Shown: positions 3,261 through 55,146 of the stretch, in pieces | Layout of the letters: the number at the start of each line of letters is the position of its first letter | Position numbering within the stretch: the stretch's first letter is position 1 | DNA from: Eledone cirrhosa | Taxonomy: Eukaryota | NCBI GenBank assembly: GCA_964016885.1 | Contig: OZ024741.1 | Span: forward strand, 200,322,001-200,386,000 | Direction of reading: 5' to 3' | Length of the DNA: 64,000 nt | Made by a program: the position numbers and the translations under genes | The notes under the pieces: model-generated | What the model saw: only the letters and a program-made list of their open reading frames with translations | The model's database searches: none | What the model was told of the DNA's origin: nothing

Positions 3261-3829
3261 TAAGAAGTTATAAGGCTTTATTCTAATCTTCATTCACAAA
3301 CAGAATTATGGCCACTTGCAATTTTTGTTGCCAGATTCACATGTAACTATGTAGTCTGCACCAACTAACGTGGTTGCAGCTGATTGGTTGATTCAAACGA
3401 ATTTCATAATAGTATACACTCCAAGTTCCATATCACCATTAAGTAATGATGAAACCTTGTGTAAAAATAACAACTAGTAGTGTTACAGAGGAAGGGTGTG
3501 GAAAGAGTATGGTCCATATTGGGCAACACATTTATGGGGAGCAGCACTTCAAGAAGGATTTACTGTGCAATATGATGTATTTTTTGTTGGGAGTTGGGGG
3601 TAACAAATTCAAAGGTTGCCCCAGGTGGCACACACTCTAGGTACACTACTGGTAAAAATTCTTCCTCAAGACACCCATTCTGAGTTCAAATCCCGCCGAG
3701 GTTAACTTTGCCTTTCATCCTTATGGGGTCGATAAAATAAAGTACCAGTAATGCACTGGGTAATTGCTGGCTTTGTGCCAATAGTAGAAACAATTATTAC
3801 AGAACTAAGATCTACATGATAAATGCACT

Positions 3830-4245
3830 CTGTACACATTGTGAAGTGGTTAGTAATAGGAAGGGTATCCAGCTGTAGAAAGCTGCCAAACAAAGCATTC
3901 GAAAGACCCTTCAGTTGTATCAAGGGCATGACAGCCTCTCTAGTGTTGGTGATCTACATGATAAACAGACCCAATACATATTGTAAAGTGGTTGGTGATA
4001 TGAAGGGCATCCAACCATAGAAAACTTGCCAAACAAAAAGTTGGGAGGACCCTTCAATTGTGTCAAAGACTTGAATTCTCCTATGCCCAGGTAGAACATG
4101 AAACTGTACATAAGCGAGATGCAGACGCCCAGTCTGTCTGGGAGCACCAAGTCTGTCTGGAAGGTCTGTAGCCCCACTTCAGTACTAACTTGGTCTATGT
4201 AGACTCATGCAACCCTTGCTAGCAAGGAAAGCAGACGTTAAACGA
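3830..4245 (+). mobile_element. Composite RTE-related non-autonomous repeat with internal tandem subunits (similar copy at about 20960-21450)
   Basis: Repeated GTGGTTGGT..AAGGGCATCCAGC..TAGAAA blocks ending in the CCCTTGCTAGCA..GGAAA..GACGTTAAA tail shared with the RTE LINE. Confidence 0.6.
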
Positions 4246-34870: not shown

Positions 34871-34879
34871 AAGGTCATG

Positions 34880-35320
34880 GCAGACAGTCTCTATTGGGTG
34901 TTCTGTAGTATAGAACGAGAATTTGGTAAATGTTTCCTTGTTGAAGTATCAGTTATGCAATAACAGATATTGAATGTTGTAACAGAACAATGAATTCGAT
35001 CTGGTACACACTTTGTGAGTGATAACTGGATAGTTGACTACAACATTGAGCCAATAGTGACTACATCTACTCCATTATTGCTCGTGAACAAAACTTAGTC
35101 GATTTTGAAGATGCAGATGGGCATATGGAGACTGTTGAAAATATATGAATGCAAGCAAAGCGAAAAATTCGCTGGCAATTACAGGGGAGCTGGACCGCTG
35201 ACGACAGGATTCTATGTTGTATGTTAGTGCGCTTGGTTGTTGGTTGCTCCAACGTTTTAGCTTCGCAATCACCCACGTTAATGTAGTGAGTGTCATAGTT
35301 CGCCTCAAACATTTTTAGAA
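34880..35320 (+). mobile_element. Degenerate Merlin/IS1016 (ISXO2-like) DDE transposase fragment
   Basis: WVFCSIEREFGKCFLVEV, IRSGTHFVSDNW and NLVDFEDADGHMETVENI*MQAKRK match the Merlin motifs WVFG.IER, I..GT.I.SD.W and NFVDP..HT..IE..W. Confidence 0.65.
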
Positions 35321-36674
35321 AGAAACACTAAATTCCCTGTTGTAGTGTGTAAATTGAATGCACGTCTTTTCCTGTGATTTTTTTTCTTTATTTTTATTAT
35401 TAATTCGTTCCTTTTGCAAACCATGAAGATTATATAATTTAATTAGATACACATAATAAATACAACGCTCCACAAAAGAAAAAAAAAGATTTTATTAGAT
35501 GGCTGTTGACTCTCCTGAGTTCCTCTGCCCTTTGGCAGGTTTTGTTTTTCATCCCGCATGGTGTCCCAAATCCTCCTCCTCGCCAACGTCTTTTCTTGTG
35601 ATTTTTTTCTTTATTTTTCTTATTAATTCGTTCCTTTCATAAACCATGAAGATTATATAATTTAATTAGATACACACAATAAATACAACGCTGCTACATG
35701 TATGGAGTCATCCCACCATTTTAGCGAATAATATTTGGTACCTCTAAACCCTTTTCGTTTGATTCTGTTCAGCACAATTCAATCAAAGCTTATTGTTAGC
35801 ATTTGTGTTATTTTATTGTAGCTATACGTGGTTTCTAATTTTTGTAAAAAAAAATCATTTTCTTATTTCTTTCCTATGTTGCATATAAGCTTATTTTTTG
35901 TTTATACAAAATCCCTCTTTCTTTTTTGTACGTTCTTTTTCATTTTCAATTTAATTTGATAGTAAATGGTATTCGTTATGACGGAATTTTACCTGTATCA
36001 AAAAAAAAAAAAAAAAGAAAATAAGGGAACCAACTCATGGTTGTAATTGTCTCTTTTTTTTAGGAATGTAAAATACGACTTTACCGTTTAATTTCATTTT
36101 CTCATTTTGATATCTATTGAAGTTTACTACTAATGTCATATGTTATAGAGAACGAATAAACGGAAAAAAAAGAAAAAGAAAAAAAGACATCGTTTGTTTA
36201 TACGATCATTACAAGACCAACTTTGTAACGCCAAGTCACATTACTAAAATAGTCTTAACGATTCAATTTGAAGAAGAGAGTTATTTCCCTTGATTGATTT
36301 GCATAAGCAGCTTAACACCTGCTGTCTTAAAAACATATTGAGACAAAGGCCTGAAACCTTTTATTAACGTCTGTTGATTGAAGGATACTGTCTATTATAG
36401 TCTATAAACTCTTAATCTACCAGCCTCTCCGCCGTTTTCTTTTAGATTATTCACCTTCAGATTTGAATAAGTAGCATAAATGTGTAAAATGTAAACCTTT
36501 ACTAGATTGTTACCGCAGTCTGATGCGATGATACGAAGCAACATTTTATTCATTCACTCCGTTTATATCTCGACAGTAACTTCTGTATCATTATAAGCCT
36601 GTTACAATGTTCTGGAATATTTAGGTGATAATTATGTACCTGCGTAAGTATATGTATGTATGTATGTATGTATG

Positions 36675-38644
36675 TTTTCTCTTTCTCTTAATTTTGAGTA
36701 TATTTTTTGACCGGCCACCTTCCTGGTGGCAAGGTTGTAAAAGAAAAGAAATTGTCATCCCTTGAATCGCAAGAATGTTTTGCAAATTTTGAAGGTGCCA
36801 GCTATCGCAGCCATTTGTAGACTATGAATTAGGGAGCTGCGCTTTTTGTCCGCAAATCCAAGTTCAGTCATACTTTGGTCCAAGCGGGTTGGTATATAAC
36901 CCGTAGCACCAATAATGATGGGTATGAAGCTAAAGGTGTATCTTGGATACTGGATTTGTAAACTCCTCATCAATGGTCCGTAGATGTCCTCCTTCTCCTG
37001 TATTTTTCTGACAACGTTTACATCAAGTGGGCAGCTGATCTCCACAACAGAACACGTTTTCAATGTGTGGTCCCAAACTACAATATCAGGCCGGTTGTGC
37101 TTTAATTTGGTGGCAGTTTTTATTTTCAGGTTCCACCAGTATTCCTTAGTGCCATCTGTCTCAATATATTCTTCCTCGTTTGTTGTTGATTTTGTTTTCC
37201 GAAGTGCGTTCCAGATGGTTCTAGCTATCCCATCGTGTCTCATGGGGAGGTAGTAGCGAGATGACATTCTTTCGCAGCTGGCAACAATGTGGCTTACATC
37301 CTCGATCTTTGTTTTACATAGCCTACATTTATTGTCAGCTGTTGGCCCTCCTCTTTTCTGCAGCAGATATTTGGTAGGGAGTTCTTGTTCCTGTATTGCA
37401 TAGAGATATCCCTCAAGGTGTGATGTCATAAACTTGTCGGAACTCCATGCCAGGCTTTTTGAGTGGTTTATCCCCTCTATGGTCTGTGTTTTACGCCTCA
37501 AGTATCCATGCACAACTTTTTCTGTAAATTGGTCAATTTTTTTTTCTTGTTTGAACATTGAATAGGATCTTCCGATTTCTCTGGGTGAGAGATTTATATC
37601 GGGCTTTATTCCATATCTCTCCTCCAGATCAGTCGCTATTCTAATGATATTTCTTTTTTCATGGTCATAAACCTGGGCAAGATGGTTGCCAACCTTTTTC
37701 CTCTGTTGAAGGTGTTGCTTCAGTGTCACTATCCGGGTCTCATATGTTGTTAATATTGATTTTAGACCCCGGCCACCTTCCTTGCGTGAGAAGTATAGCC
37801 TATCCACATCACCATTGATGTTAAAGTTCCCAGTAACACTGAGAAGTTTTCGAGTTCTAACATCCATCTCACTTAGTTCTTGCAATGACCAGTTCAGTAG
37901 GCCAAATGTTGGCGTTAGAATTGGCACAGCATAAGTATTGTGGGCAATGTATTTGTTGTATGCTGACAGTTCTGATGACCATATTTTCTTTATTCTTCTG
38001 AGGTATTCAGTTCTGGTTCTCTCCTTATTTATGGGTCCATCATATCTGACATTCTCATCCTGTCCAAGATATCTGTAGTTGTCACCTGACTGCAGAGGTT
38101 GTATTGTCAGGCCGTTCATCTCTAGATTTCTAGAGGAGGGCACAGCTCTTCCACGTTTTACTGCCAAATATGCACACTTGGACTCACCAAATTTCATTTT
38201 GATGTCGGTTGAAAATTGTGTAATGAGGTCCAATTGTTTCTTGATGTCATTGATATTTGGCCCATACAACTTCAGGTCATCAACAAAGAAAAGATGGGAG
38301 ATACTTCTGGTCCCACTTCTTTGTCGACCTTGTTTCCTGAGTAGGTAAGATAGTGGATTCAGTGAGAGAACGAAGAGTAGCACTGACAAGCTATCACCCT
38401 GAAAGATGCCCTTCTGGTAATGTATCTTATCAGTCTTAACCTGCTCCTTCTCACCTCTAAGGATCAAACTGGTGTACCAGTTCTTGGTCAGGCGTTCAAA
38501 AGCAGCTACCAATGGTTGTGGGACTTTAGCTAACTGTAAAGCCTTAACAATCCACCCATGAGGTACACTATCAAATGCTTTTTGATAGTCCAGCCACACG
38601 ACAGTCATGTTTCTGCGATTCTTTGTTTTTTTTTGTTTTTTTTT
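36675..38644 (-). mobile_element. 5'-truncated R4/Dong-like RLE non-LTR retrotransposon with an intact ~620-aa frame
   Basis: Motifs WLDYQKAFDSVPH, GIFQGDSLS, HLFFVDD, RKEGGRGL, CRLC..H..C, RHD and RPDIVVWD..VVEISCP. (TATG)n lies on both sides (36651-36674, 38645-38738). Confidence 0.9.
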
Positions 38645-38738
38645 ATGTATGTATGTATGTATGTATGTATGTATGTATGTATGTATGTATGTATGTATGT
38701 ATGTATGTATGTATGTATGTATGTATGTATGTATGTAT

Positions 38739-39331
38739 GGTGCTACTGGTAACATGTATCCCAGTACAACCTGTCTCATGGTCGGGTCGTTGGCGACTAA
38801 ACTGGCAACCCCACCAAAGTTTTTTGGTGAGGAGGGTGACTTTGGACATCCTGCAGGACTAAAAACAAAACCTGTCAAAGGGCAAAGGAGCTCATAAGAG
38901 TCAATGGCCATCCAAAATCACCGGGAGAGATGACCCCTTAGCCTTTTTCAAGGCAGAATTCTAGGAGAAGGAAAACTCTGATATAACATCTGCAATCCTG
39001 ATGGTATCCAATGATGTTGACTTGTTCTTCTTTTTGGTAAATATCATCTTGGTTAAGAGAGTGGGACTGGCTTTGTGCAGTGCCTTTGCTCACTATAAAA
39101 GCTTCACGGCACAGGCATTGCTTTATATCTGGAGATCTCTCTGCACTTGTCGTCACATGGTGCCATGGGCCCAGCACGATGTGTCAATAATTGTCACAGG
39201 TGTAGTATTTGTACCAGAGTTTTCAAGTCGCTGGCTGGACTAAAAAGTCACACTTGTTTAGCGCATCGGTAGGGGTTCTCCTACATGGATATAAAGTAGT
39301 GGCCGTACTCGATAACGAGTTGGCAGCCACC
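38739..39331 (+). mobile_element. ~600-bp non-autonomous RTE-derived unit A, copy 1, followed by an (ATGT)n tail
   Basis: Highly similar to 39442-40047, 41757-42375 and 48789-49395. Contains the RTE 5'UTR-like CTAGGAGAAGGAAAACTCTGA motif and 3' stem-loop CTCG-ATAA-CGAG. Confidence 0.85.
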
Positions 39332-39366
39332 ATGTATGTATGTATGTATGTATGTATGTATGTATG

Positions 39367-39397
<31 letters not shown>

Positions 39398-39441
39398 GTA
39401 TGTATGTATGTATGTATGTATTTATGTATGTATGTATGTAT

Positions 39442-40047
39442 GTCAGGTCACCACTTGGTGCTACTGGTAACATGTATTCCAGTAAAAACTGTCCCATGGT
39501 CGGGTCGTTGGCGACTAAACTGGCAACCCCACCAAGGTTTCTAGGTGAGGAGGGTGACTTTGGACATCCTGCAGGACTAAAAACAAAACCTGTCAAAGGG
39601 CAAAGGAGCTCTTAAGAGTCAATGGACATCCAAAATCACTGGGAGAGATGACCCCTTAGCCTTTGTCAAGGCAGAATTCTAGGAGAAGGAAAACTCTGAT
39701 ATAACACCTGCAACCCTGATGGTATCCAATGATGTTGACTTGTTCTTCTTTTTGGTAAATATCATCTTGATTAAGAGAGTGGGACTGGCTTTGTGCATTG
39801 CCTTTGCTCACTATAAAAGCTTTACGGCACAGGCATTGCTTTATATCTGGAGATCTCTCTGCATTTGTCGTCACATGGTACCATCGGCCTAGCACTATGT
39901 GTCAATAATTGTCACAGGTGTAGTGTTTGTACCAGAGTTTTCAAGTCGCTGGCTGGACTAATGTCACATTCGTTCAGCGCATCGGTAGGAGTTCTCCTAC
40001 ATGGATATAAAGTAGTGGCCGTACTCGAAAACGAGTTGGCAGCCACC
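39442..40047 (+). mobile_element. Unit A copy 2
   Basis: Starts GTCAGGTCACC directly after the (ATGT)n tail of copy 1 and ends GGCAGCCACC(ATGT)n. Confidence 0.85.
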
Positions 40048-40142
40048 ATGTATGTATGTATGTATGTATGTATGTATGTATGTATGTATGTATGTATGTA
40101 TGTATGTATGTATGTATGTATGTATGTAGGTATGTATGTATG

Positions 40143-40176
<34 letters not shown>

Positions 40177-40275
40177 TGCCCTTATTGCCAATTATCTTTT
40201 TTGTTCCAGAACCTAAATTGCCAATTATCTCTTTTATATTGTTCTGGAACATCATTGAATTGTAGAAAAAAAAAA

Positions 40276-40322
<47 letters not shown>

Positions 40323-40339
40323 CATAATAATAATACACT

Positions 40340-40640
40340 ATTAATAATTATTAATGCACTCGTGCAATGCCTGTGCGTGACGAATATTTTAAAAGTGAGG
40401 AAAGACTGTGCACTGAGCCAATCCCACTCTCTGGGCGACAGTAGCTATAACCCGAAAAGAAGAAAGATCAACATCATCGGTAACTACTGAGCTGCAGGTT
40501 TTATGTCGGAGTTAACCCAGTTTCCTGAGTTGCCTTCTCCTAGAAGAATGCCCTGACAAGGGCTAGGGGTTCTTAACTCCCAGTGGTTTAACTGCGCGAT
40601 CGGGCATCCAGCCCGATTATTTCTATGTCCCCGCGCAAAA
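40340..40640 (-). mobile_element. Related unit B, inverted
   Basis: Reverse complement of 49640-49930; shares the CTAGGAGAAGG and GATGTTGA..AGAGAGTGGGA blocks with unit A. Confidence 0.7.
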
Positions 40641-40659
40641 AAACAAAAAAAAAAACGAC

Positions 40660-41738
40660 TTGGAGTGGTTGATCAGTTTGTCTTAATTGGAGCGTTTCCA
40701 TCAGATGTGTCTCAGACGGATCCATGGCGTTCACTGGAGGGACCACATCAGTGATGTCGAGATTTTGGAAAGCTCTATGTGTGACAGTATAGAAGCTCTT
40801 GTGCTTAAGCAACGACTCCGTTGGAGTGGTCACCTTGCCAGGATGAAGGATTCTAGAATACCAAAACAACTCTTTTATGGAGAGTTAGTTAAAGGAAAAC
40901 GACCGCCACATAAACCAAAAAAGAGGTATAAGGATTCCTTGAAAGCCTCTTTGAAAGACGCTAACATCTCTGCGGATACATGGGAAAATATTGCTGCTGA
41001 TCGTAATAAATGGAGAAAGACTGTATATGAGGGAAAAGTTGCCTTTGAGGCATCTCGAATCGCACACGAGAAAGTAAAGCGGGATGTGAGGAAGGGCATT
41101 GCTGTTGCACTTCCAGACGGCGAGGGTCCACCTATGGTGCTAACATGCAGCGTCTGTGCGAGACTCTGCCTAAGCAAAGCTGGAATCGAAAGTCATTTTC
41201 GCAGTCATAAAGTAAGACCAGTGGTTGACTACCAGGCTGCTGTTGGAGATGCTACTCATCATGCTTGCCAAACATGTGGTAGAGAATTTAAACCAGCAGG
41301 AGGGCTCAAGCGACATGCAAAAGTACATGAACTCCAACCACATCCGGCTATTCCCAGTGAATGTTTTGGTTGCCGACTCTGTGCAAGACATTTTAGATCA
41401 TTGGCTGGGCTAAAAAGCCACATTCGATCGCAGCGCTGTTAGTTGCTATCGCGTGTGTGTGTGTATAGATATGTCTATGTGTGTGCGTGTGTGTGTATAT
41501 ATATATGTATATTATTATTGTTGTTGTTGTCGTTATTATTATTGTTGTTATTATTATTGTTATTAATGTATATGTGTGTATGTATATATATATATGTGTG
41601 TATGTATGTGTGTATATATATATATATATATATTTCTTATTTAAAAATTTTATTTTATTTTTTATTTATTTATTAATTATTATTATTTTTTTTTCTCCTC
41701 GTGCAATGGCCATACTCGATAACGAGGGGGCAGCCATC
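40660..41738 (+). mobile_element. RTE-clade LINE 3' end with three C2H2 fingers and an (ATGT)n tail; putative partner of units A and B
   Basis: ORF 40687..41442 has RLRWSGHLARM..RIPKQLFYGEL..KKRYKD and fingers CSVC..H, CQTC..H and CRLC..H. The 3' end is GGCCATACTCGATAACGAGGGGGCAGCCATC(ATGT)n. Confidence 0.85.
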
Positions 41739-41756
41739 ATGTATGTATGTATATAT

Positions 41757-42375
41757 GTCAGGTCACCAGTTGGTTTGGTACTACTGGTAACATGTATCCC
41801 AGTACAACCTGTCTCATGGTCGGGTCGTTGGCGACTAAACTGGCAACCCCACCAAGGTTTCTTGGTGAGGAGGGTGACTTTGGACATCCTGCAGGACTAA
41901 AAGCAAAACCTGTCAAAGGGCAAAGGAACTCTTAAGAGTCAATGGACATCCAAAATCACCGGGAGAGATGACCCCTTAGCCTTTGTCAAGGCAGAATTCT
42001 AGGAGAAGGAAAACTCTGATATAACGCCTGCAACTCTGATAGTATCCAATGATGTTGACTTGTTCTTCTTTTTGGTAAATATCATCTTGGTTAAGAGAGT
42101 GGGACTGGCTTTGTGCAGTGCCTTTGCTCACTATAAAAGCTTCACGGCACAGGCATTGCTTTATATCTGGAGATCTCTCTGCACTTGTCGTCACATGGTA
42201 CAATGGGCCCAGCACTATGTGTCAATAATTGTCACAAGTGTAGTGTTTGTACCAGAGTTTTCAAGTCGCTGGCTGGACTAAAAAGTCACACTTGTTCAGC
42301 GCATCGCTAGGAGTTCTCCTACATGGATATAAAGTAGTGGCCGTACTCGAAAACGAGTTGGCAGCCACCACCACC
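41757..42375 (+). mobile_element. Unit A copy 3, directly after the LINE's ATGT tail
   Basis: Same 5' and 3' termini as the other copies. Confidence 0.85.
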
Positions 42376-42474
42376 ATGTATGTATGTATGTATGTATGTA
42401 TGTATGTATGTATGTATGTATGTATGTATGTATGTATGTATGTATGTATGTATGTATGTGTGTGTGTATGTTTT

Positions 42475-42780
42475 GTCAGGTCGCTCTTCAGCGCTACTGG
42501 TAACATGTAACTCAATACAACCTAAGCATGAGCGGGTCATCGGCGACTGAACCGGCAACCCCATTTCGGTTGCTTGGTGAAGAGGGTGATTTTGGACACC
42601 ATGCGGGATGAAAACCAAGACCCGTTAAAGAGCGGAGGAACTCAGCAGAGTCAACGGCTATCTAATACATTTTTTTTCTGTGGAGCCAGAGATTCGTAGT
42701 CTTCATTAAGACATCACTCTAGGAGAAGATCACTCTGATATAAAACCTGCGACTTCGTTTGTATACAATGATATAGATCA
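42475..42780 (+). mobile_element. Diverged, 3'-truncated unit A-like copy (related inverted fragment at 35498-35585)
   Basis: GTCAGGTCGCT..CTACTGGTAACATG..GGCAACCCC..CTAGGAGAAG. Confidence 0.7.
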
Positions 42781-43102
42781 GTTCTAGTTTTTATTTTCTA
42801 CTTTTCATTCTTATTTGTTTATTTCACTGCTTCTATTTTTAGTCGCTTTTTAATGTAATAACACCAAACATCATACTTTTTTTCCTTGCTTTTTTGCTTT
42901 ATGAGTCTGAGCTGTATTATAATGTCTCCTTTTTCTTGTTTGTTTTCGAATAATTACAATTATCTATGCTCCTGGCGATATACAGCGTACCGGTCCCCAG
43001 TAAGTCTATGCGTCAAAGCATAGTGTCCGAAACATACAGACACATAAATATGTGTGTGTGTGCGTATATATATGTATGTATGTGTGTATATATATGTATG
43101 TA

Positions 43103-43179
<77 letters not shown>

Positions 43180-43241
43180 TTGTGTATTTATTCATATATA
43201 TATATATATATATAGTAATAATAATAAATTTGAAGAAACAA

Positions 43242-43560
43242 AATGGCGTAGGATAGAAGAAAGGAAAGGCACAGAAACAAATAAAGGAATCTCCAGTCAC
43301 TGAAGAGGTCACAGAGTGTGTGACGAAAGGACTATGACTATATATAAACAACTATCTGGTTGTGGAACCAACCAACCAACCAGAAATTTATAAGTTGTAA
43401 ATTTGTAAATTTATAAATTTATAAATATATAATAAATTGAAGTGAAAGCAACTGGTGCGTGTGTTTCTTATTGGCAACATGACCCTCCCAAAGTATAACA
43501 ATATCGGTTTCAACACACGATTTCAGATAAAGAATCTTGCTAAACAAATTCAGAAACGAA
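43242..43560 (+). mobile_element. Penelope pseudo-LTR copy containing a hammerhead motif (43295-43339)
   Basis: Reverse complement of 61665-61973. Motif AGTCA-CTGAAGA-G-GTCAC..GTGAC-GAAAGGACTA-TGACT. Confidence 0.7.
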
Positions 43561-43576
43561 ATATATATATATACAT

Positions 43577-43731
43577 ATAGGAAAAAGTATGACCCCGACA
43601 GCAGAGCTCAAGTCGTTTCTGAGGCTATTATATATATACACACACAAACATATATATAAAAATACACATATACACACACATATCTACAAAAAGTTACGTC
43701 ACCACCTTAATAAAAATACACACACACATAT

Positions 43732-43794
<63 letters not shown>

Positions 43795-43891
43795 ATTACA
43801 ACAGATACATATAAAAAATACAATTATATACACACATACATATACATACAGATATATATAATTATATATACATATACATATACATATACAT

Positions 43892-43924
<33 letters not shown>

Positions 43925-45440
43925 CATATATACACATATACATATATACACATATACACAACACACACACACACAGAAATAAATATCTAAAAATAAAAAG
44001 GTGGGTATGTAAAGGGTAAGGTAGAAAGTAGGGGGGAATAAGGAAAATAAATGACAGGAAAAAGTTTAAATATAAGGGGAGATAAGGGAGAAAAAGAATA
44101 TAAGAGTACAGAAAGTGAGTTCAGAAAATAATAAAAATCGTAGTGGATGTAAGGAGTAGAGAGCAGAGAAGAAGTTCAAGGTGGTTGAGTCAATCCAGTT
44201 ACAGATCAGATGTGATTTCAGGTGAGGACAACATCTGAAGATCTCGTCTTGGAGTTCAGGCAAGTTGAAGTGGCTTTCAAGTTTTGTAAAGTCCTAAATT
44301 TTTCAGTGGTACACAAAGAACAATTCTTTGTGCCCCTTTGGTACTCCCTCGAATGGTCTAAAATAGACCAATCGATAGAGTACGGGATGTTTTTATCCTT
44401 GAATTCCCACACCTTATTTGCGAGAGCCGTTGCTGTTCTTTTATCGGAGTGTTTAAAAGAAGCGACATGTGCATAAAACCTGGTTTTAAACCTGTCCTGA
44501 GTCTTGCCAACATATCGTTCATTCATGGCTGGCTGGTTGTTAATTAAAGGTGTCACTTTGGCTTCATATACACCAGATTTGGTGTTACATTTGCCCTGTA
44601 ATGGGCATTCATCCGGCTTCTTGCAACTGCATCCTGGATTTATTCTCGTACGATTAGAATTGGTGATTTTAGACTTCATTGATGGGCAGCAAGAGTAACT
44701 GATTTTAACTACATTTCTATTAAATATCTTATGATATCTATGATTAGGAGGAAAATGTTTGTCTAAGAGGTCAAGGAATTTCCTTCATACATTAGTTTTG
44801 AGAGTTAGAGAGAAGGGGGGTGTAAACCAAATAATTTTCCTTTTCCTATTATTGTGGTTAGTTTTAGGGGGAGGAGTAGGTAAATAATTAATGTGTTCTG
44901 TAAATCCGCTGTTATTAAGGGCTTTATTATAATAAGGGGTGGCTTTGTTAAAAATGTCTAGAGACGAAGATAAGGTAGAAATCCTACGGCTAATGTTGGG
45001 AATAAGATTTTTAAAAACTATAGGGGTATGGCAAGACTCTTTGTGTATATATCTAAGATTTTAGTTAGGTTTATGATAAGGTTTAAAAGAGGCAGTAAGT
45101 AGATCAAGATTAATGTCAAGAAAGTTAGCATTGGTAAGGTTCGTATCTATAGTAATTTTAAGGTTAAGATTAGCAAAAGTATTGATTAAATCTTTACGGA
45201 ATTTATCAAGGTTATGGCCGTTGGTGGTATGAGTAACTGCCAATCCGTCATATATGCTTTTAGAAGCCTCTACAATGCAGATGGATAAATCTCCGAGTAA
45301 CAAAATCAGGTGGCAGTAGGAAGGGAGGAAATAGGAAAAAGAAATGTAAAATGAAATGAAAACCAGAGATGAAGTTACCTTGGAATCGATTTATTAGTCC
45401 CTATATTTGGGATCTCTGATCAATCATCAGGGATTTCCAA
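43577..45440 (-). mobile_element. Penelope-like element fragment (RT thumb + GIY-YIG endonuclease + 3' region)
   Basis: Motifs NFLDINLDL..FKPYHKPN and CSCK..CPLQGKC..GVYEAKV..YVGKT..FKTRFYAH..CSLCTTEK. A degenerate hammerhead lies at 45398-45433. Confidence 0.85.
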
Positions 45441-45722
45441 GATTTGTCGTAGATGAATCTACGTGGTCATATGTATGCGTGACTGTGAGTGTGTGTGTGT
45501 GTCTGCAGCGAAAATGTCCGTGGAAAGGAAAAATGAAAAGAGAACTCTAGTGAAAAAGAGTTCATTCATTATGATTCGTACTCGTAGTATATATTGCGCT
45601 TCCTTAGGTGTCATAGAATAGGCGTCACGGCAACTGCAGACTACACGACGATGCAGAATGCATGAAATATCAGTACAACACGTAGACCTAATTCACCAGT
45701 TGCAGGCGTTGGCATTGTCAAA

Positions 45723-46098
45723 TACTCTCGGGCCCCAAATAATGAGGGGGCGGTTGGTATAAGCGGGGATGGGGTGGTGGTGGAAAATCGGAAATGTTTC
45801 TAGATTATCTCCGTTGATTAAAAACAAAAAGAATTAGTCGTTTAGTTTACATATTGAGACCCCAACCCATCCTATTTATTTTATAACATATGGGATTTCT
45901 AGTAATGTACTTCTTTTGTTATGTATAATGTTTTTTAATGTATAAAGAAAATTAATTGTCGTAGAAATGCTATCAATTAAAATAACATTTCGTCGAAGAT
46001 GGATTAGCATAATATAATAAGAGGGCGGTGGGAACGAACTGAAAAATTATCAAGCGGGGTGGGCGTGGGGTATGATGATTATTCGAAAACCGAGAGTA
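45723..46098. mobile_element. Putative Tc1/pogo-type MITE
   Basis: Terminal inverted TACTCTCGG / CCGAGAGTA. Confidence 0.45.
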
Positions 46099-46099
46099 G

Positions 46100-48370
46100 A
46101 CACTGTGATATTGGTACTGTCGTACGAAAACCACTGTGATATTGGTACTGTGATATTGGTAGTCATATAGACACTGTGACATTGGTATTGTGATATTGGT
46201 ACTGTTATATAGACACTGTGACATTGGTACTGTGATATTGGTACTGTGATATAGACACTGTGACATTGGTACTGTGATATTAGTACTATCATATAGACAC
46301 TGTGATATTGGTACTGTGATATTGGTACTGTGACATTGGTACTGTGATATTGGTACTGTGATATAGACACTGTGACATTGGTACTGTGATATAGACACTG
46401 TGACATTGGTACTGTGATATTGGTACTGTCATATAGACACTGTGATATTGGTACTGTCATATAGACACTGTGACATTGGTACTGTGATATTGGTACTGTG
46501 ATATAGACACTGTGACATTGGTACTGTGATATTGGTACTGTGATATAGACACTGTGACATTGGTACTGTGATATTGGTACTGTGATATAGACACTGTGAC
46601 ATTGGTACTGTCATATAGACACTGTGATTTCGGTACTGCCATATAGTCACTGTTATATTGGTACTGTGATATTGGTACTGTCATATGGACACTGTGACAT
46701 TGGTACTGTGATATTGGTACTGTCATATAGACACTGTGATATCGGTACTGTGATATTGGTACTGTCATATAGACACTGTGATATTGGTACTGTCATATAG
46801 TCACTGTGATATTGGTACTGTCATATAGTCACTGCGATATTGGTACTGTCATATAGACACTGTGATATTAGTACTGTTATATATTCAATCTAGTACTGAC
46901 AAACACTGTGATATTGGTACTTTCGTATAGACACTGTGATATTGGTACTGTCATATAGACACTGTGGTATTGGTACTGTGATATTGGTACTGTCATATAG
47001 ACACTGTGATATTGGTACTGTCATATAGACACTGTGATATTGGTACTGTCATATAGACACTGTGGTATTGGTACTGTGGTATTGGTACAGTCATATAGAC
47101 ATTGTGATATTGGTACTGTCATATAGACACTGTGATATTGGTACTGTGATATTGGTATAGTGATATTGGTACTGTCATATAGAAATTGTAGTGTTGGCAC
47201 TGTGATATTGGTACTGTCATATAGACACAGTGACATTGGTACTGTGATATTGGTACTGTCATATAGACACTGTGATATTGGTACTGTCATATAGACACTA
47301 TGATATTGGTACTGTGATATAGACACAGTGACATTGGTACTGTGATATTGGTACTGTCATATAGACACTGTGATATTGGTACTGTCATATAGACACTGTG
47401 ATATTGGAATTGTTATATAGACACCGTGATATCAGTACTGTCATATAGAAACTGGGATATTGGTACTGTCATACAGACACTGTGGTATTGGTACTGTCGT
47501 ATAGTCACTGTGATATTGGTACTGTCATATAGACACTGTGATATCGGTACTGTCATATCGACACTGTGGTATTGGTACTGTGATATTGGTACTGTCATAT
47601 CGACACTGTGGTATTGGTACTGTGGTATTGGTACTGTCGTATAGACACTGATATTGGTATTGTGATATTGGTACTGTCATGTAGTCACTGTGCTATTAGT
47701 ACTGTCATATAGTTTCTGTGATATTAGTACTGTTATATATTCACTGTGGTGTTGGTACTGCGATATTGGTACTGTCATATAGACACTGTGATATTGGAAC
47801 TGTGATATTGGTACTGTCATATAGTCATTGTGACATTCGTACTGTCATGTAGTCACTGTGATATTGGTACTGTGGTATTGGTACTGTCATATAGACACTG
47901 TGATATTGGTACTGTCATATAGACACTGCGATATTGGTACTGTCATATAGACATTGGGATATTGGTACTGTCGTATAGTCATTGTGATATTGGTACTGTC
48001 ATATAGACACTATGATATTGGTACTGTGATATTGGTACTGTCATATAGTCACTGTGATATTGGTACTGTTATATAGTCACTGTGATATCGGTACTGTCAT
48101 ATAGACATTGGCATATCGGTACTGTCGTATAGACACTGATATTGGTATACTGATATTGGTAGTGTCATATAGACACTGTGATATTGGTACTGTGCTATTG
48201 GTACTGTCATATAGACCCTGTGATATTGGTACTGTGGTATTGGTACTGTCATATAGACACTGTGATATTGGTACTGTCATATAGATACTGTGATATTGCT
48301 ACTGTCATATAGACACTGTGATATTGGTACTGTCGTATAGTCAACCTAGTATTGATAAACACTGTGATAT
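46100..48370. repeat. Complex minisatellite built from two related 14-mers
   Basis: ACTGTGATATTGGT and ACTGTCATATAGAC are interspersed in irregular order, with variants. Confidence 0.95.
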
Positions 48371-48788
48371 TGGTATTAATAGAAAGATACTGTGGCATTG
48401 ACACCAATATATTAAAATATAATGATATAAAAGTACTTGGAATGGACCTCCGTAAGGATGTAAGGCAAAGTTAACTTCGACGGGATTTGAACTCAGCCCG
48501 TAAAGGGACGTAACTATGCTAGAAAGTATGGCGTCCAACTCTCTACCGATACTGCCAATTCACATATTGGGTCTAAATGTTTCCCTCCTTCGCAGTTGGT
48601 CCTGGAAACTGATAACTAATCTTTGATCTTGATCAGGCGAACGACAGCAGCCTAAGACCAATTCATATGCAAGAGGTTAACACTTCTTCTATATGTAGAT
48701 ATGTTCATATACGTATGTATGTATGTATGTATGTATGTATGTATGTATGTATGTATGTATGTATGTATGTATGTATGTATGTGTGTGT

Positions 48789-49395
48789 GTCAGGTCACCA
48801 GTTGGTGCTACTGGTAACATGTATCCCAGTACAACCTGTCTCATGGTCGGGTCGTTGGCGACTAAACTGGCAACCCCACCAAGGTTTCTTGGTGAGGAGG
48901 GTGACTTTGGACATCCTACAGGACTAAAAACAAAACCTGTCAAAAGGGCAAAGGAGCTCTTAAGAGTCAATGGCCATCTAAAATCACCGGGAGAGATGAC
49001 CCCTTAGCCTTTGTCAAGGCAGAATTCTAGGAGAAGGAAAACTCTGATATAACACCTGCAACCCTGATAGTATCCAATGATGTTGACTTGTTCTTCTTTT
49101 TGGTAAATATCATCTTGGTTAAGAGAGTGGGACTGGCTTTGTGCATTGCCTTTGCTCACTATAAAAGCTTCACGGCACAGGCATTGCTTTATATCTGGAG
49201 ATCTCTCTGCACTTGTCATCACGTGGTACCATGGGCCCAACACTATGTGTCAATAATTGTCACAAGTGTAGTGATTGTGCCAGTTTTCAAGTCGCTGGCT
49301 GGACTAAAAAGTCACACTCGTTCAGCGCATCGGTAGGGGTTCTCCTACATGGATATAAAGTAGTGGCCGTACTCGAAAACGAGTTGGCAGCCACC
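48789..49395 (+). mobile_element. Unit A copy 4 between (TATG)n tracts
   Basis: Same termini as the other copies; followed by a partial diverged copy at 49450-49545. Confidence 0.85.
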
Positions 49396-49629
49396 ATGTA
49401 TGTATGTATGTATGTATGTATGTATGTATGTATGTATGTATGTATACTCACTTGGTGAGGAGGGTGATTTTGGATACCCTGCAGGACAAAGAACAAAACC
49501 TGACAAAGGGCGGAAGAACTCATAAGAGTCAACGGCCATCCAAAAATGTGTATATATGTATATACATGTATGCATATACATATAAGTATGTATATATGTA
49601 TCTGCATGTATACATATATATATATATAT

Positions 49630-49981
49630 GCGCGGGGATATAGAAATAATCGGGTTGGATACCCAATTGCGCGGTTAAACCACTGGGAGTGAAGGACTCC
49701 TAGCCTTTGTCAGGGCATTCTTCTAGGAGAAGGCAATTCAGGAAACTGGGATAACTCCGATATAAAACATGCGACTCAATAGTTACCGATGATGTTGATC
49801 TTTTCTTCTTTTCGGGTTATAGCTACTGTCGCTCAGAGAGTGGGATTGGCTCAGTGCACAGTCTTTCTTCACTTAAAAAAAAAATCTCCACGTACAGGCA
49901 TTGCACGATGGCATTAATTGATAATTATTAACAATGTTATATCGTGCACTGGCCATACTCGATAAGTAGGGGGCAGCCATC
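49630..49981 (+). mobile_element. Unit B with the LINE-type 3' tail
   Basis: Ends CGTGCACTGGCCATACTCGATAAGTAGGGGGCAGCCATC(ATGC/ATGT)n, matching the LINE end at 41700-41738. Confidence 0.75.
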
Positions 49982-51061
49982 ATGCATGCATGCATGTATG
50001 TATGTATATATGTATGTATTGACATGTAACTTCAGATAGAGAAGAAGAGAGAGGATGAAAGAAAGTAAGTGAGAAAGAGATATCGAGGAAGAATCGACTT
50101 CAGTACTGGACTGATGCTTTAATAATCAACTTTGAAACGATGAAAGGTAAAGTTGACCTCGGCGGGATTTGAACTCAGCCGGAATAAATAGCAGCACAAA
50201 GCATTCTATTAGACATTCTAACTCCTCTGGCAATTAACCGCCTGGTACTAACATATAACCACTGTGATGATGTTATGATATTAGTTCTAGTATGTAGAGA
50301 CTGTGATAGAGGCACTGATATAGACACTAATATAGACACTAATATTGACAACATATTAATATAATGATATTCACACTAACATATATTAACACTAACATAT
50401 TAATACGATTATAGTAACACCAACTCTGTAATATTCACACTAACACTGTAATATTGACATTAACATGCGATAATATCAATACTAACATTGTAATATCAAC
50501 ACTAGCTCATTAAAACGATGATTTTACACTAATTTATTAATATTAATACTAACAGGTTAATACAATGATATTAATGTGATGTTAGCAGTAACATATATAC
50601 ACGGTGTTATTGGCACTAACATATACACACCATGGTGTTGACACTCACATATAAACCTATATAACGACCATCTTTGCTTCAGTCAAACATGGGAAATCTC
50701 TTGGCAGCCAGAAAATCCAGTCTTTTTGAACTAGTTTGAAAACTTCAGAGTTTTGACTGAACAGAAAATGACAGTATGTTGGTAGGGAAATGCAACAACT
50801 ACAGCGAATAGTCAGCCATATCAACGGAGACATAACGGTATTCTGCTACAGACGAACGTGACTAATCACTATTTAATTCTTCTTTTAGGGCAATGGTTTC
50901 CTTTGTAATGTATTTTTAGTTTTGTTTTATAGAAATCATTATGTTTATTTGCTTTGTCGTTCTTTTGATATAACAGGAAAAAGCCAGACAGGAGATTTGC
51001 TGTAGAAAATTTTAGGACGGATTTATTTGAATTGCCCTCTAGTTAAGTTGTTGTTTATTTG

Positions 51062-54000
51062 TTAGGGGAGGGCGTTGCTTTCTGGGACTAAAACTGGTTT
51101 ATCCTCATAGTTTACAGTGAAAGTATTCTGATCTGGAACTTTGTTAGAGATCACAGATCTGATGGCAGCAAGTAGATCAGTTACTTGAGCATTTGATGAA
51201 AATGGTATTCGTTTAAAGGACGATGGGTTGGGGTTAGTGACAAAAGTGTTGCCTGTATGCTAAATACAAAGAAATCTTTTGAAATGCATTAAAAAGTGGT
51301 TTGCTATATAGATAAGTTAATATGTATTTTAAAAAAAACTTAGAATTTTGTTGTACTATAATAAATTAATCAAAACATACCAGATCTAAAAAATGCTAAG
51401 ATTTCGTGGAGTGTAGAAACTATTAAGGTTTTATTGAAAAATACACTGTGTTGGAATGCGGCTTGTCGAATCAATGAAATTCGGATTATCCCCTTTCTGC
51501 ATATAAGTTTCATGTGTGGATACATCTTACTGCAATCATAATTGGGAACACTATATAATTAACAAATCTGAGCTGAATCATTTAACATTTAAAAAATTTT
51601 TTTTACTGTGCTTAGAATAAACAACGAGAATCTACCCAGAACATTCTGAAGCCAGCAGGGTCACCAAAGTTCAAAATATTCTTCTTTTTTCCAACTTTAC
51701 TTCTATAAAGAATAACCTCTCACATATTTGTTCGACGTTTATTATAGACGATTATTGTGGGTGTATTGCTCGTCCTGCGACTGCAATCGAGAGTAGAAAG
51801 ACTGCTATCATGCGACTGCAATCGAGAGTAGAAAGACTGCTATCATGCGACTGCAATCGAGAGTAGAAAGACTGCTATCATGCGACTGCAATCGAGAGTA
51901 GAAAGACTGCTGTCATGCGACTGCAATCGAGAGTAGAAAGACTGCTGTCATGCGACTGCAATCGAGAGTAGAAAGACTGCTGTCATGCAACTGCAATCGA
52001 GAGTAGAAAGACTGCTATCATGCGACTGCAATCGAGAGTAGAAAGACTGCTATCATGCGACTGCAATCGAGAGTAGAAAGACTGCTATCATGCGACTGAA
52101 ATCGAGAGTAGAAAGACTGCTATCATGCGACTGCAATCGAGAGTAGAAAGACTGCTGTCATGCGAGTGCAATCGAGAGTAGAAAGACTGCTATCATGCGA
52201 CTGCAATCGAGAGTAGAAAGACTGCTATCATGCGACTGCAATCGAGAGTAGAAAGACTGCTGTCATGCGACTGCAATCGAGAGTAGAAAGACTGCTATCA
52301 TGCGACTGCAATCAAGAGTAGAAAGACTGCTATCATGCGACTGCAATCGAGAGTAGAAAGACTGCTGTCATGCGACTGCAATCGAGAGTAGAAAGACTGC
52401 TATCATGCGACTGCAATCGAGAGTAGAAAGACTGCTGTCATGCGACTGCAATCGAGAGTAGAAAGACTGCTATCATGCGACTGCAATCGAGAGTAGAAAG
52501 ACTGCTGTCATGCGACTGCAATCGAGAGTAGAAAGACTGCTATCATGCGACTGCAATCGAGAGTAGAAAGACTGCTATCATGCGACTGCAATCGAGAGTA
52601 GAAAGACTGCTGTCATGCGACTGCAATCGAGAGTAGAAAGACTGCTATCATGCGACTGCAATCGAGAGTAGAAAGACTGCTGTCATGCGACTGCAATCGA
52701 GAGTAGAAAGACTGCTATCATGCGACTGCAATCGAGAGTAGAAAGACTGCTGTCATGAGACTGCAATCGAGAGTAGAAAGACTGCTATCATGCGACTGCA
52801 ATCGAGAGTAGAAAGACTGCTATCATGTGACTGCAATCGAGAGTAGAAAGACTGCTGTCATGCGACTGCAATCGAGAGTAGAAAGACCGCTATCATGCGA
52901 CTGCAATCGAGAGTAGAAAGACTGCTATCATGCGACTGCAATCGAGAGTAGAAAGACTGCTGTCATGCGACTGCAATCGAGAGTAGAAAGACTGCTATCA
53001 TGCGACTGCAATCGAGAGTAGAAAGACTGCTGTCATGCGACTGCAATCGAAAGTAGAAAGACTGCTATCATGCAACTGCAATCGAGAGTAGAAAGACTGC
53101 TATCATGCGACTGCAATCGAGAGTAGAAAGACTGCTATCATGCGACTGCAATCGAGAGTAGAAAGACTGCTGTCATGCGACTGCAATCGAGAGTAGAAAG
53201 ACTGCTATCATGCGACTGCAATCGAGAGTTGAAAGACTGCTGTCATGCGACTGCAATCGAGAGTAGAAAGACTGCTGTCATGCGACTGCAATCGAAAGTA
53301 GAAAGACTGCTATCATGCGACTGCAATCGAGAGTAGAAAGACTGCTATCATGCGACTGCAATCGAGAGTAGAAAGACTGCTGTCATGCGACTGCAATCGA
53401 GAGTAGAAAGACTGCTATCCTGCGACTGCAATCGAGAGTAGAAAGACTGCTGTCATGCGACTGCAATCGAGAGTAGAAAGACTGCTATCATGCGACTGCA
53501 ATCGAGAGTAGAAAGACTGCTATCATGCGACTGCAATCGAGAGTAGAAAGACTGCTGTCATGCGACTGCAATCGAGAGTAGAAAGACTGCTATCATGCGA
53601 CTGCAATCGAGAGTAGAAAGACTGCTGTCATGCGACTGCAATCGAGAGTAGAAAGACTGCTATCATGCGACTGCAATCGAGAGTAGAAAGACTGCTGTCA
53701 TGCGACTGCAATCGAGAGTAGAAAGACTGCTATCATGCGACTGCAATCGAGAGTAGAAAGACTGCTATCATGCGACTGCAATCGAGAGTAGAAAGACTGC
53801 TGTCATGCGACTGCAATCGAGAGTAGAAAGACTGCTATCATGCGACTGCAATCGAGAGTAGAAAGACTGCTATCATGCGACTGCAATCGAGAGTAGAAAG
53901 ACTGCTGTCATGCGACTGCAATCGAGAGTAGAAAGACTGCTGTCATGCGACTGCAATCGAGAGTAGAAAGACTGCTATCATGCGACTGCAATCGAGAGTA

Positions 54001-55146
54001 GAAAGACTGCTATCATGCGACTGCAATCGAGAGTAGAAAGACTGCTGTCATGCGACTGCAATCGAGAGTAGAAAGACTGCTATCATGCGACTGCAATCGA
54101 GAGTAGAAAGACTGCTATCATGCGACTGCAATCGAGAGTAGAAAGACTGCTGTCATGCGACTGCAATCGAGAGTAGAAAGACTGCTATCATGCGACTGCA
54201 ATCGAGAGTAGAAAGACTGCTGTCATGCGACTGCAATCGAGAGTAGAAAGACTGCTATCATGCGACTGCAATCGAGAGTAGAAAGACTGCTGTCATGCGA
54301 CTGCAATCGAGAATAGAAAGACTGCTATCATGCGACTGCAATCGAGAGTAGAAAGACTGCTGTCATGCGACTGCAATCGAGAGTAGAAAGACTGCTATCA
54401 TGCGACTGCAATCGAGAGTAGAAAGACTGCTGTCATGCGACTGCAATCGAGAGTAGAAAGACTGCTATCATGCGACTGCAATCGAGAGTAGAAAGACTGC
54501 TGTCATGCGACTGCAATCGAGAGTAGAAAGACTGCTATCATGCGACTGCAATCGAGAGTAGAAAGACTGCTATCATGCGACTGCAATCGAGAGTAGAAAG
54601 ACTGCTGTCATGCGACTGCAATCGAGAGTAGAAAGACTGCTATCATGCGACTGCAATCGAGAGTAGAAAGACTGCTATCATGCGACTGCAATCGAAAGTA
54701 GAAAAACTGCTTTCTTGGGTGTATTGTTCCCCGTGTGAATGCAATCGGGCGTAGGTAGGAAGACTACTATTTATCTCACTTTCTTTAATGCATGATATTT
54801 ACCTCTGCATTCTAAAGTGTTTGGCCTTAAAGAAGCTGTCCAGTGTTCTCAGATTATAAACTTTAGATGTGATACAGTTTTCCAAATTCTGATTCGTCTA
54901 CCTTTTGCCTCTTCGACGTTCTTATATTGCTAGGTCCATACTGATATGTAACTCTTGCCCAATTCTCTGTCTTTTAGATAAAACTACCACATATTGTTCT
55001 TTGCTATCTTCGCTTTTAATACTGTCATAATTGCTGCTATTGTACTTATTTCCATAACATTGACAGTTAATTTGATTGTCACTGTTGTTATTATTGTTGG
55101 TGCATTTTGTCTTTGTTTATGCATGAAATTTGCCGTCAGCTGTACA
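51062..55146 (-). pseudogene. Putative spliced gene or pseudogene, four exons (55146-54803, 51702-51636, 51496-51445, 51252-51062); product unknown
   Basis: AG/GT boundaries with matching phases 2, 0, 1. The three 3' exons are stop-free up to a terminal TAA. The 5' exon has three in-frame stops. Confidence 0.4.
51776..54711. repeat. Homogeneous 35-bp tandem satellite, about 84 copies
   Basis: Unit TGCGACTGCAATCGAGAGTAGAAAGACTGCT(A/G)TCA; no spacers. Confidence 0.97.

What the first reader, a model, noticed from the sequence alone, without database searches (positions are those of the whole stretch)
38645..49990. Self-perpetuating (ATGT)n retroelement chain: non-autonomous units that appear to insert into, and regenerate, each other's microsatellite tails
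Seen: at least four ~600-bp unit A copies, a diverged fifth, and two unit B copies. Every unit A starts immediately after a (TATG)n-type tract, and complete copies end in GGCC(G/A)TACTCGA(T/A)AACGAG..GGCAGCCA(C/T)C followed by a new (ATGT)n. The same terminal stem-loop and tail end the RTE LINE at 40660-41738. Unit A also carries a relic of a C2H2 finger like the LINE's last one (CSVCTRVFKSLAGL.SH vs CRLCARHFRSLAGLKSH). Known: bipartite 5'UTR + 3'-end non-autonomous RTE derivatives exist, and LINE RT recognises 3' stem-loops. Inference: each insertion makes a fresh target, giving head-to-tail arrays and spreading ATGT microsatellites, a LINE/non-autonomous system with a self-made niche.
Basis: partly seen in the sequence, partly recalled or inferred. 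Interest (0 to 1): 0.75.

Follow-up and report, generated by a model that had tools for sequence, protein, structure and literature searches.

The report
Jumping genes homing to ATGT microsatellites
Two related retrotransposons, their short hitch-hiking derivatives and an unrelated third element sit in ATGT repeats across this genome in fixed, opposite orientations; where it can be told, the repeat was there first, so the elements likely target it rather than make it, which explains the head-to-tail chains and would be new for this usually unselective group.

Summary
The chain is real, but the proposed 'self-made tail' is not supported. Unit A (at least 9,846 copies) is an internal-deletion derivative of its own parent LINE (LINE-A), not of the LINE in the window (LINE-B, parent of unit B). 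All insert into pre-existing (ATGT)n/(AT)n tracts. Of 100 position-ordered A copies, 47 have (ATGT)≥3 at the 5' junction and none has ACAT; the background is 0.12%. The 3' tract mirrors the 5' tract (rho 0.54). Eight of 87 copies show informative 10–20-bp target duplications with no added tail (0.23 expected), and public reads hold one empty site. 5'-truncated LINE copies abut the same tracts. A young Dong/R4-type LINE uses the same repeat on the opposite strand. Each insertion splits and partly duplicates the tract, so targets persist on both sides and chains form: 21 of 100 copies sit in another element's flank, and neighbours are rarely sisters (1 of 36 pairs). One A–A dimer moved as a unit. 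Microsatellite-targeting LINEs and bipartite RTE derivatives are known. Strong, strand-fixed microsatellite targeting by RTE-type elements was not found in the papers searched.

The parts
36651..36675 (+). (TATG)6 tract at the 3' end of the Dong-type LINE
36676..38622 (-). 5'-truncated Dong/R4-type LINE: open frame of 618 aa with RT, CCHC and PD-(D/E)xK-like motifs; very young family that sits in (ACAT)n on its own strand
   Evidence: (40 of 40 scored hits 100% identical over 401 bp)
38644..38739 (+). (TATG)24 tract shared by the Dong 5' junction and the A1 5' junction
38740..39331 (+). Unit A copy 1 (LINE-A nt ~13-429 plus last ~177 nt)
39332..39443 (+). (ATGT)28 target tract between A1 and A2
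39444..40047 (+). Unit A copy 2
40048..40178 (+). (ATGT)33 target tract
40177..40655 (-).
40653..41738 (+). 3' part of LINE-B (nt 3263-3293 and 3510-4589): end of ORF with three C2H2-like fingers, microsatellite-rich 3' UTR, terminal stem-loop. With the previous part it forms one 5'-inverted, internally deleted insertion with a 3-nt overlap at the inversion
41739..41758 (+). Short ATGT/AT tract between LINE-B and A3
41759..42375 (+). Unit A copy 3, with an ACC stutter at the 3' end
42376..42471 (+). (ATGT)24 target tract
42477..42792 (+). 5' part of a third related family (C); no 3' terminal
48713..48790 (+). (GTAT)19.5 target tract
48791..49395 (+). Unit A copy 4 (young; 0.2% from a copy ~100 Mb away)
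49396..49445 (+). (ATGT)12 target tract
49450..49981 (+). Unit B, 5'-truncated (head, internal AT-rich segment, LINE-B-type 5' UTR, LINE-B terminal)
49982..50019 (+). ATGC/ATGT tract 3' of unit B

Best explanation
The chain is a pile of independent insertions by two sister RTE-type LINEs, their internal-deletion derivatives (units A and B) and a Dong-type LINE, all sitting in ATGT/AT microsatellites that they likely target rather than make. Shown: unit A is LINE-A nt 1-430 plus its last 177 nt. Unit B shares LINE-B's 5' UTR and terminal. RTE-type ends face ATGT and Dong faces ACAT. Informative copies have 10-20-bp duplications that begin at the element's last base. Inferred: the LINE protein binds the 3' stem-loop. 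The apurinic-type endonuclease would nick the ACAT strand at a TpA step (top strand T^ATRT), preferring (ATGT)n over the 20-fold more abundant (AT)n. Priming would use at most a few bases (AU/AUGU) of RNA-target pairing, so no tail is written. The staggered cut duplicates part of the tract, leaving target on both sides. Because a large share of the genome's ATGT tracts already border such elements, later insertions often land next to earlier ones and give same-strand chains. Read-through RNA can occasionally move two units together.
For: Structure: 8 of 20 extended LINE-A loci carry A's nt 1-430 at 91-98% identity and A's last 177 nt. Nine of 20 extended LINE-B loci carry B's 308-nt UTR upstream of the ORF region. 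Targeting: (ATGT)≥3 at 47 of 100 5' junctions and ACAT at 0, against 0.12% of random positions and 0.8% of TATRT sites in 400 kb. The 30 closest copies behave alike (27 of 30 in an RT run of ≥12 nt; 14 of 30 in ATGT). 5'-truncated copies, which cannot carry a 5' repeat, abut tracts of ≥12 nt in 17 of 21 LINE-B, 16 of 30 LINE-A and 14 of 15 Dong cases. Pre-existence: 5'/3' composition rho 0.54, p 1e-6, n=69; informative duplications 8 of 87 against 0.23 (max 2 in 500 shuffles). An empty form skipping 624 bp (606 element + 6 extra + 12 duplication) appears in one X18 contig and 4 X21 reads. Independence: 1 of 36 adjacent pairs are mutual nearest neighbours. Saturation: 5 of 13 random ATGT tracts border these families; 6,255 of 27,158 V(ATGT)5 starts are exact terminals. 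Dimer: L009/L013 share 1,258 bp with 13 differences, including a 96-nt irregular spacer, on different chromosomes with different outer flanks.
Against: A bare T^ATRT motif already predicts 80% of sites in RT runs of ≥12 nt against 84% observed; only the ATGT bias exceeds that null, and slippage after insertion could inflate it. About half of A copies lack (ATGT)≥3 at the 5' side, so specificity is loose. In pure tracts a duplication cannot be told from a tail. When offsets are allowed, 11 of 87 copies match further downstream (2.4 expected). Four of these also have an offset-0 duplication; the other 7 could be periodic tracts or RNA-copied repeat. Four of 87 copies show an ACC stutter, so a little slippage addition occurs. 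Only one empty site was seen, and its flank is itself a repeat. The background sample holds only 13 tracts. No biochemistry was done; whether endonuclease, zinc fingers or RNA pairing selects the site is untested.
Confidence: 0.8

Rival explanations
1. Self-made tail: each insertion writes a new (ATGT)n from the RNA or by slippage, as lepidopteran RTEs do, and this seeds the next target.
For: 48 of 87 3' junctions start with ATGT. V(ATGT)5 starts outnumber the reversed control 27,158 to 14,556. Seven copies have unexplained offset matches. RTE tails between the duplications are published (PMC2887409, Discussion).
Against: No added tail in 8 of 8 offset-0 informative cases plus L003. Copies in AT tracts have AT 3' sides (9 of 10). 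Seven of 87 copies have no tract. The empty site accounts for the flank exactly. A tail cannot explain tracts at 5' truncation points.
Confidence: 0.1
2. No real microsatellite targeting: an ordinary RTE TpA preference plus short 3' microhomology in a genome with ~11% AT/GT repeats, with ATGT expanding after insertion or copies being retained in repeat-rich regions.
For: The TATRT null reproduces the RT-run frequency. A TpA signature and RNA-influenced site choice are published for RTEs (PMC6007223, PMC13295347, passages).
Against: The same null gives 0.8% (ATGT)≥3 against 47% observed, and 47% (AT)≥5 at the 3' side against 31%. Polarity is 47:0 and 36:0. The youngest copies show the same pattern. 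An unrelated Dong-type element picks the same tracts with opposite polarity (20:0).
Confidence: 0.08
3. Chains arise by local tandem duplication or unequal exchange between tracts.
For: One locus (L261) has mutual nearest neighbours and a repeated irregular spacer; L156 repeats a 26-nt spacer piece.
Against: 35 of 36 adjacent pairs are not mutual nearest relatives. The window's four copies are 3.0-4.7% apart while each has closer copies elsewhere. The chain mixes five families and two orientations.
Confidence: 0.02

Closest known systems
Bipartite non-autonomous RTE LINEs (RTESINE1/2, WALLSI3, MAR4, Bov-A; Kojima 2018, PMC5786205, passages)
   Same: 5' UTR plus 3' end of an autonomous RTE by internal deletion; no ORF; a dimer (Bov-A2) is known.
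   Different: No microsatellite targeting appears in the passages read; 'octopus' and 'mollusc' occur 0 times in the text search. Here two LINE/derivative pairs and a third family share a structured 5' head.
Microsatellite-targeting LINEs: Waldo (ACAY), Mino (AC), Kibi (TC), Koshi (TTC), Dong (TAA) (Grandi & An 2013, PMC3812793, passages)
   Same: Insertion into a pre-existing microsatellite. Waldo's ACAY is the same repeat class as ATGT read on the other strand.
   Different: These belong to the R1, Tx1 or restriction-like-endonuclease groups (PMC4640811, passages). The elements here are RTE-type, with looser specificity (ATGT more than AT) and tens of thousands of non-autonomous copies. The Dong-type element here uses ACAT, not TAA.
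RTE insertion signature 'Tn-TA' and 3'-repeat-influenced site choice (PMC6007223; PMC13295347; passages)
   Same: Cut at a TpA step; the first base of the duplication matches the RNA end.
   Different: Those families are described as rarely flanked by sequence like their 3' repeat; here both flanks are the microsatellite.
Lepidopteran RTEs that generate microsatellites (Tay 2010, PMC2887409, Discussion read)
   Same: RTE 3' ends associated with microsatellites.
   Different: There the repeat lies between the two duplications and sites are called non-specific; here the repeat is the duplication and its surroundings.
RTE-2_OV and the RTE and Dong consensus elements of Octopus (Petrosino 2022, PMC9115989; passages and section 8)
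   Same: Single ORF with endonuclease, RT and C2H2; microsatellite-rich 3' UTR; an RTE and a Dong element in one genome.
   Different: Six RTE-2_OV primers mismatch LINE-B, and the part of LINE-A tested, at 4 or more positions. No target preference or non-autonomous partner appears in the text read.

Membership tests
Bipartite non-autonomous LINE (unit A) | 5' part equals the 5' end of an autonomous LINE | tested here: met
   A nt 1-430 at 91-98% in 8 of 20 extended LINE-A loci
Bipartite non-autonomous LINE (unit A) | 3' part equals the extreme 3' end of the same LINE; ORF deleted | tested here: met
   Last 177 nt at 91-96% in most of 30 LINE-A loci; ~3.46 kb missing
Bipartite non-autonomous LINE (unit B) | 5' UTR and terminal shared with LINE-B | tested here: met
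   308 nt at 87-90% in 9 of 20 loci; terminal 40 nt at ~92%. Most LINE-B copies seen have a different upstream extension in place of B's 190-nt head
RTE clade (LINE-A, LINE-B) | Single ORF with apurinic-type endonuclease and RT, no ORF1 | tested here: met
   Pfam Exo_endo_phos and RVT_1 above cut-off in a 1181-aa and an 863-aa frame; 59% identity to each other; ORF starts just after the UTR
RTE clade (LINE-A, LINE-B) | RT phylogeny places them in RTE rather than a neighbouring clade such as Vingi | not testable with these tools
   No clade-named references were returned. The assignment rests on recalled RTE/Bov-B-type motifs and on architecture
RTE-2_OV | Sequence identity to the published element | tested here: not met
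   6 of 6 primers tested have 4 or more mismatches to two full LINE-B loci and two partial LINE-A loci
Target-specific (microsatellite) non-LTR element | Target repeat on both flanks, including 5'-truncated copies, in fixed orientation | tested here: met
   specificity is loose (47 of 100 strict ATGT)
Target-specific (microsatellite) non-LTR element | Sequence-specific cleavage by the encoded endonuclease | not testable with these tools
   Needs a cleavage or retrotransposition assay
Microsatellite-seeding RTE (Tay 2010) | Repeat lies between the element end and the 3' duplication | tested here: not met
   8 informative duplications at offset 0; empty site; 7 ambiguous offset cases remain
Dong/R4 clade (36676-38622) | RT followed by CCHC and restriction-like endonuclease; microsatellite target | tested here: met
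   RVT_1 and zf-RVT; all 5 structure hits are R2-type proteins; motifs read from the translation; ACAT flanks 20:0
Dong/R4 clade (36676-38622) | Phylogenetic placement in R4/Dong | not tested
   Clade label recalled from motif pattern; no tree was built
5' self-cleaving ribozyme of RTEs | Match to a known ribozyme fold at the 5' end | tested here: inconclusive
   No ribozyme family among 61 Rfam hits at E≤5. Hand comparison with HDV-like and twister layouts (recalled) did not fit. The head is structured

The most novel reading that the evidence does not exclude
An RTE lineage has independently evolved strand-specific homing to (ATGT)n, steered by the few bases of flanking microsatellite that each transcript reads into. 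Because every insertion splits and duplicates its target, the families multiply their own landing sites and now border a large share of the genome's ATGT tracts. Chains become composite transcription units that transpose as blocks, an incipient HeT-A/TART-like array system, while a Dong-type LINE exploits the same niche from the opposite strand.
Probability: 0.3. Interest if true: 0.72.

Novelty: new variant of a known kind. Interest (0 to 1): 0.5.

Why it matters
Target-specific LINEs are reported mainly from the restriction-like-endonuclease groups, Tx1 and R1 (PMC4640811), and RTE sites are described as non-specific or weakly biased (PMC2887409, PMC6007223). Two young RTE-type families with 47:0 strand polarity for one tetranucleotide, beside a different endonuclease using the other strand, give a natural test of whether endonuclease, C-terminal zinc fingers or RNA-target pairing chooses the site. 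The result also separates two things that look alike in assemblies: microsatellite seeding and microsatellite targeting. It warns that ATGT markers in this genome often have repeated flanks.

Tried and rejected
Rfam scan of 38600-50100: only sub-threshold microsatellite and miRNA matches, no ribozyme. HDV-like and twister readings of the 5' head were compared by eye with recalled layouts and rejected, because candidate helices are not kept in families B and C. RTE-2_OV identity was rejected. The first empty-site test (L003, four runs) gave no spanning contig and is inconclusive. The RT-run statistic was dropped as proof of targeting because a 5-nt motif null matches it. L017/L018 was rejected as a second moved dimer: the two share their upstream flank, so they are probably one locus or a duplication. 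The duplication test on unit B found 0 of 12 informative cases (null 0.09), which is uninformative; 18 of 30 head hits had no B terminal at 450-800 nt. 'Goes back' joints were not used, as they are microsatellite look-alikes. The protein search returned 671 relatives with no clade names among the 120 listed. Earlier-finding look-ups by sequence and by words returned nothing.
Full report
What is in the window. Reading the sequence, tandem-repeat scanning, self-comparison and mapping against full-length copies from elsewhere in the genome give two clusters. The first runs 36651-42792: (TATG)6, a minus-strand Dong/R4-type LINE fragment, (TATG)24, A1, (ATGT)28, A2, (ATGT)33, a rearranged LINE, a short tract, A3, (ATGT)24 and the 5' part of a third family. 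The second runs 48713-50019: tract, A4, (ATGT)12, a 5'-truncated unit B, tract. About 5.9 kb of unrelated repeats separate them. The genome is an animal one of 3.0 Gb. That it is an octopod is my inference from recalled repeats and from earlier unchecked notes; nothing below depends on it.

What the units are. A 24-mer at A's 5' end has 9,846 exact matches. Five A pieces in 400 kb of evenly spaced sample suggest a few tens of thousands with truncated copies (rough). A truncated neighbour in L085 read as three C2H2 fingers running into A's last 150 nt. Searching with it gave a second LINE, LINE-A. Of 20 extended loci, 8 begin with A's nt 1-430 at 91-98% identity and end with A's last 177 nt. 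The LINE in the window, LINE-B, carries B's 308-nt segment as its 5' UTR in 9 of 20 extended loci and shares B's terminal. Both LINEs have one ORF with endonuclease and RT above Pfam cut-offs and are 59% identical over 858 aa. So there are two LINE/derivative pairs, not one LINE with two passengers. The RTE label rests on architecture and recalled motifs; no named references were available for a tree.

Is the microsatellite targeted? I took the first 100 matches on contig C1 in position order and 40 evenly spaced 10-kb stretches as background. An alternating (A/G)T run of at least 12 nt ends at the 5' junction in 84 of 100 copies, against 7-8% of random positions. That alone proves little, because a bare T^ATRT motif gives 80% in this repeat-rich genome. 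The tetranucleotide bias is what counts. (ATGT)≥3 lies at 47 of 100 junctions, against 0.12% of random positions and 0.8% of TATRT sites, although (AT)n covers 20 times more sequence than (ATGT)n. Polarity is absolute in the sample: 47 ATGT to 0 ACAT at the 5' side and 36 to 0 at the 3' side. The 30 best matches to A4 behave alike (27 of 30 and 14 of 30), so this is not slow retention. 5'-truncated LINE copies have no element sequence that could supply a 5' repeat. Yet 17 of 21 LINE-B and 16 of 30 LINE-A truncated or rearranged ends abut such a run, 15 and 12 with (ATGT)≥3. Full-length copies, ends running off the locus and duplicates were left out. B-type heads (1,164 exact matches) give 26 of 30 and 14 of 30. 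The Dong-type family is very young: 40 of 40 scored hits are identical over 401 bp. It uses the same repeat the other way round, with ACAT at 20 of 30 3' ends, ATGT at none, and a run at 14 of 15 truncation points.

Is the tail made or found? Tay et al. give the test: a repeat made by the element lies between the element and the 3' target duplication (PMC2887409). Of the 100 copies, 87 had a 3' end at the expected distance; 13 rearranged or interrupted ones were dropped. The 3' tract starts with (ATGT)≥3 in 34 and (AT)≥5 in 27; 7 have no run of 8 nt. Composition on the two sides correlates (rho 0.54, p 1e-6, 69 copies with both sides repeat-rich). AT-rich 5' sides have AT-rich 3' sides in 9 of 10; ATGT-to-AT occurs 13 times and the reverse once. 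Eight copies have a 10-20-bp duplication containing a non-repeat variant, against 0.23 in 500 shuffles (maximum 2), each starting at the element's last base. For one of them (L065), public data hold the empty form: a joint skipping 624 bp with 12 ambiguous letters, in one contig of X18 and 4 reads of X21. That is exactly element plus 6 extra bases plus one duplication (the flank is itself a repeat, so these may be paralogues). Against this reading, allowing offsets finds 11 downstream matches (2.4 expected), 7 of which have no offset-0 partner and could hide RNA-copied repeat, and 4 of 87 copies show an ACC stutter. The rule is nevertheless that the 'tail' is target DNA. 81 of 87 3' junctions start with AT. 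In five informative cases read by eye the base before the duplication is T, which suggests a nick at TpA on the ACAT strand (inference).

Why chains form. Nine of 99 gaps are under 2 kb (0.47 expected), 8 on the same strand. In 21 of 100 copies the 5' tract is the 3' flank of another A, B or LINE. Among 184 distinct copies, 1 of 36 adjacent pairs are mutual nearest relatives (L261, a local duplication). The window's copies are 3.0-4.7% apart with closer relatives elsewhere. The niche is crowded. Five of 13 random ATGT tracts border these families, 2 of them at a 3' end. 6,255 of 27,158 tract starts of the V(ATGT)5 form are exact terminals (this phase overstates the share). So a draw among ATGT tracts would give chains at about the observed rate, and each insertion renews the target by splitting and partly duplicating it. 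One dimer (L009/L013) moved as a block, so chains can also spread by read-through.

What is known. I saw passages of PMC5786205 (bipartite RTE derivatives), PMC3812793 (Waldo, Mino, Kibi, Koshi, Dong targets), PMC4640811 (target-specific groups: early-branched, Tx1, R1), PMC6007223 and PMC13295347 (RTE TpA signature) and PMC12988792 (no occurrence of 'microsatellite'). I saw passages and the Discussion of PMC2887409, and passages and section 8 of PMC9115989 (octopus RTE-2_OV, RTE and Dong; primers do not match). Nine searches found no report of microsatellite-targeting RTEs or of these families. Repbase, Dfam, subscription papers and supplements were not seen and may hold one. An earlier unchecked note from this scan describes LINEs and a short element in ACAT tracts of this genome (e1-10329220), and two describe similar guilds on (ATT)n; these are not independent support.

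Verdict. This is a real, genome-wide system: known parts and a known strategy, in a LINE group not known for it, shared across two endonuclease types with opposite strand use. It is a new variant of a known kind; interest 0.5.

Noticed in passing
window 48789-48990 and 10 other heads (alignment A2): The ~190-nt 5' head shared by families A, B, C and further variants is structured: 6 of 47 predicted pairs have two-sided changes, 11 cells against 3.1 in shuffles (relatedness not controlled). 96 of 100 full 5' ends have GT just before CAGG, even in pure AT tracts: a precise start, a copied cap or an unrecognised ribozyme.
   Followed up: partly
window 49363-49395 vs 41706-41738: The terminal stem-loop has a compensatory outer pair between families (GTGGC/GCCAC vs ATGGC/GCCAT); A's folds at z -3.35, LINE-B's at -1.18.
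   Followed up: partly
window 40177-41738: 5'-inverted LINE-B insertion with a 3-nt overlap at the inversion: twin-priming-like geometry in an RTE-type element.
   Followed up: partly
L009 (C22) and L013 (C1): An A-A dimer with its irregular spacer was copied to another chromosome; one copy is 5'-truncated, so it likely moved as one RNA.
   Followed up: yes
L091, L095, L096, L102, L106, L107, L064 upstream of the UTR: Most full-length LINE-B copies seen carry a ~390-nt 5' extension that includes a SINE-like piece and poly-T in place of the family head, probably captured from a master locus.
   Followed up: partly
L006, L051, L055, L087, L117, L127, L168, L275: Another unidentified repeat (starting TCTTCTGG…) repeatedly abuts the same ATGT tracts; a possible further member of the guild.
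   Followed up: no
window 44218-45390 (-): Broken Penelope-like frames with a weak GIY-YIG match (E 0.004) between the two clusters.
   Followed up: no
window 34022-34948 (-): 308-aa frame with no Pfam hit that resembles the C-terminal part of a restriction-like-endonuclease LINE (recalled motifs).
   Followed up: no
window 46102-48333 and 51776-54711: Two satellites: a 14-bp-based array (periods 28/42/70) and a very homogeneous 35-bp array (84 copies, 97% matches).
   Followed up: no
runs X1, X2, X3: Relatives of unit A occur in runs labelled as other organisms, so the family is not confined to this species.
   Followed up: no
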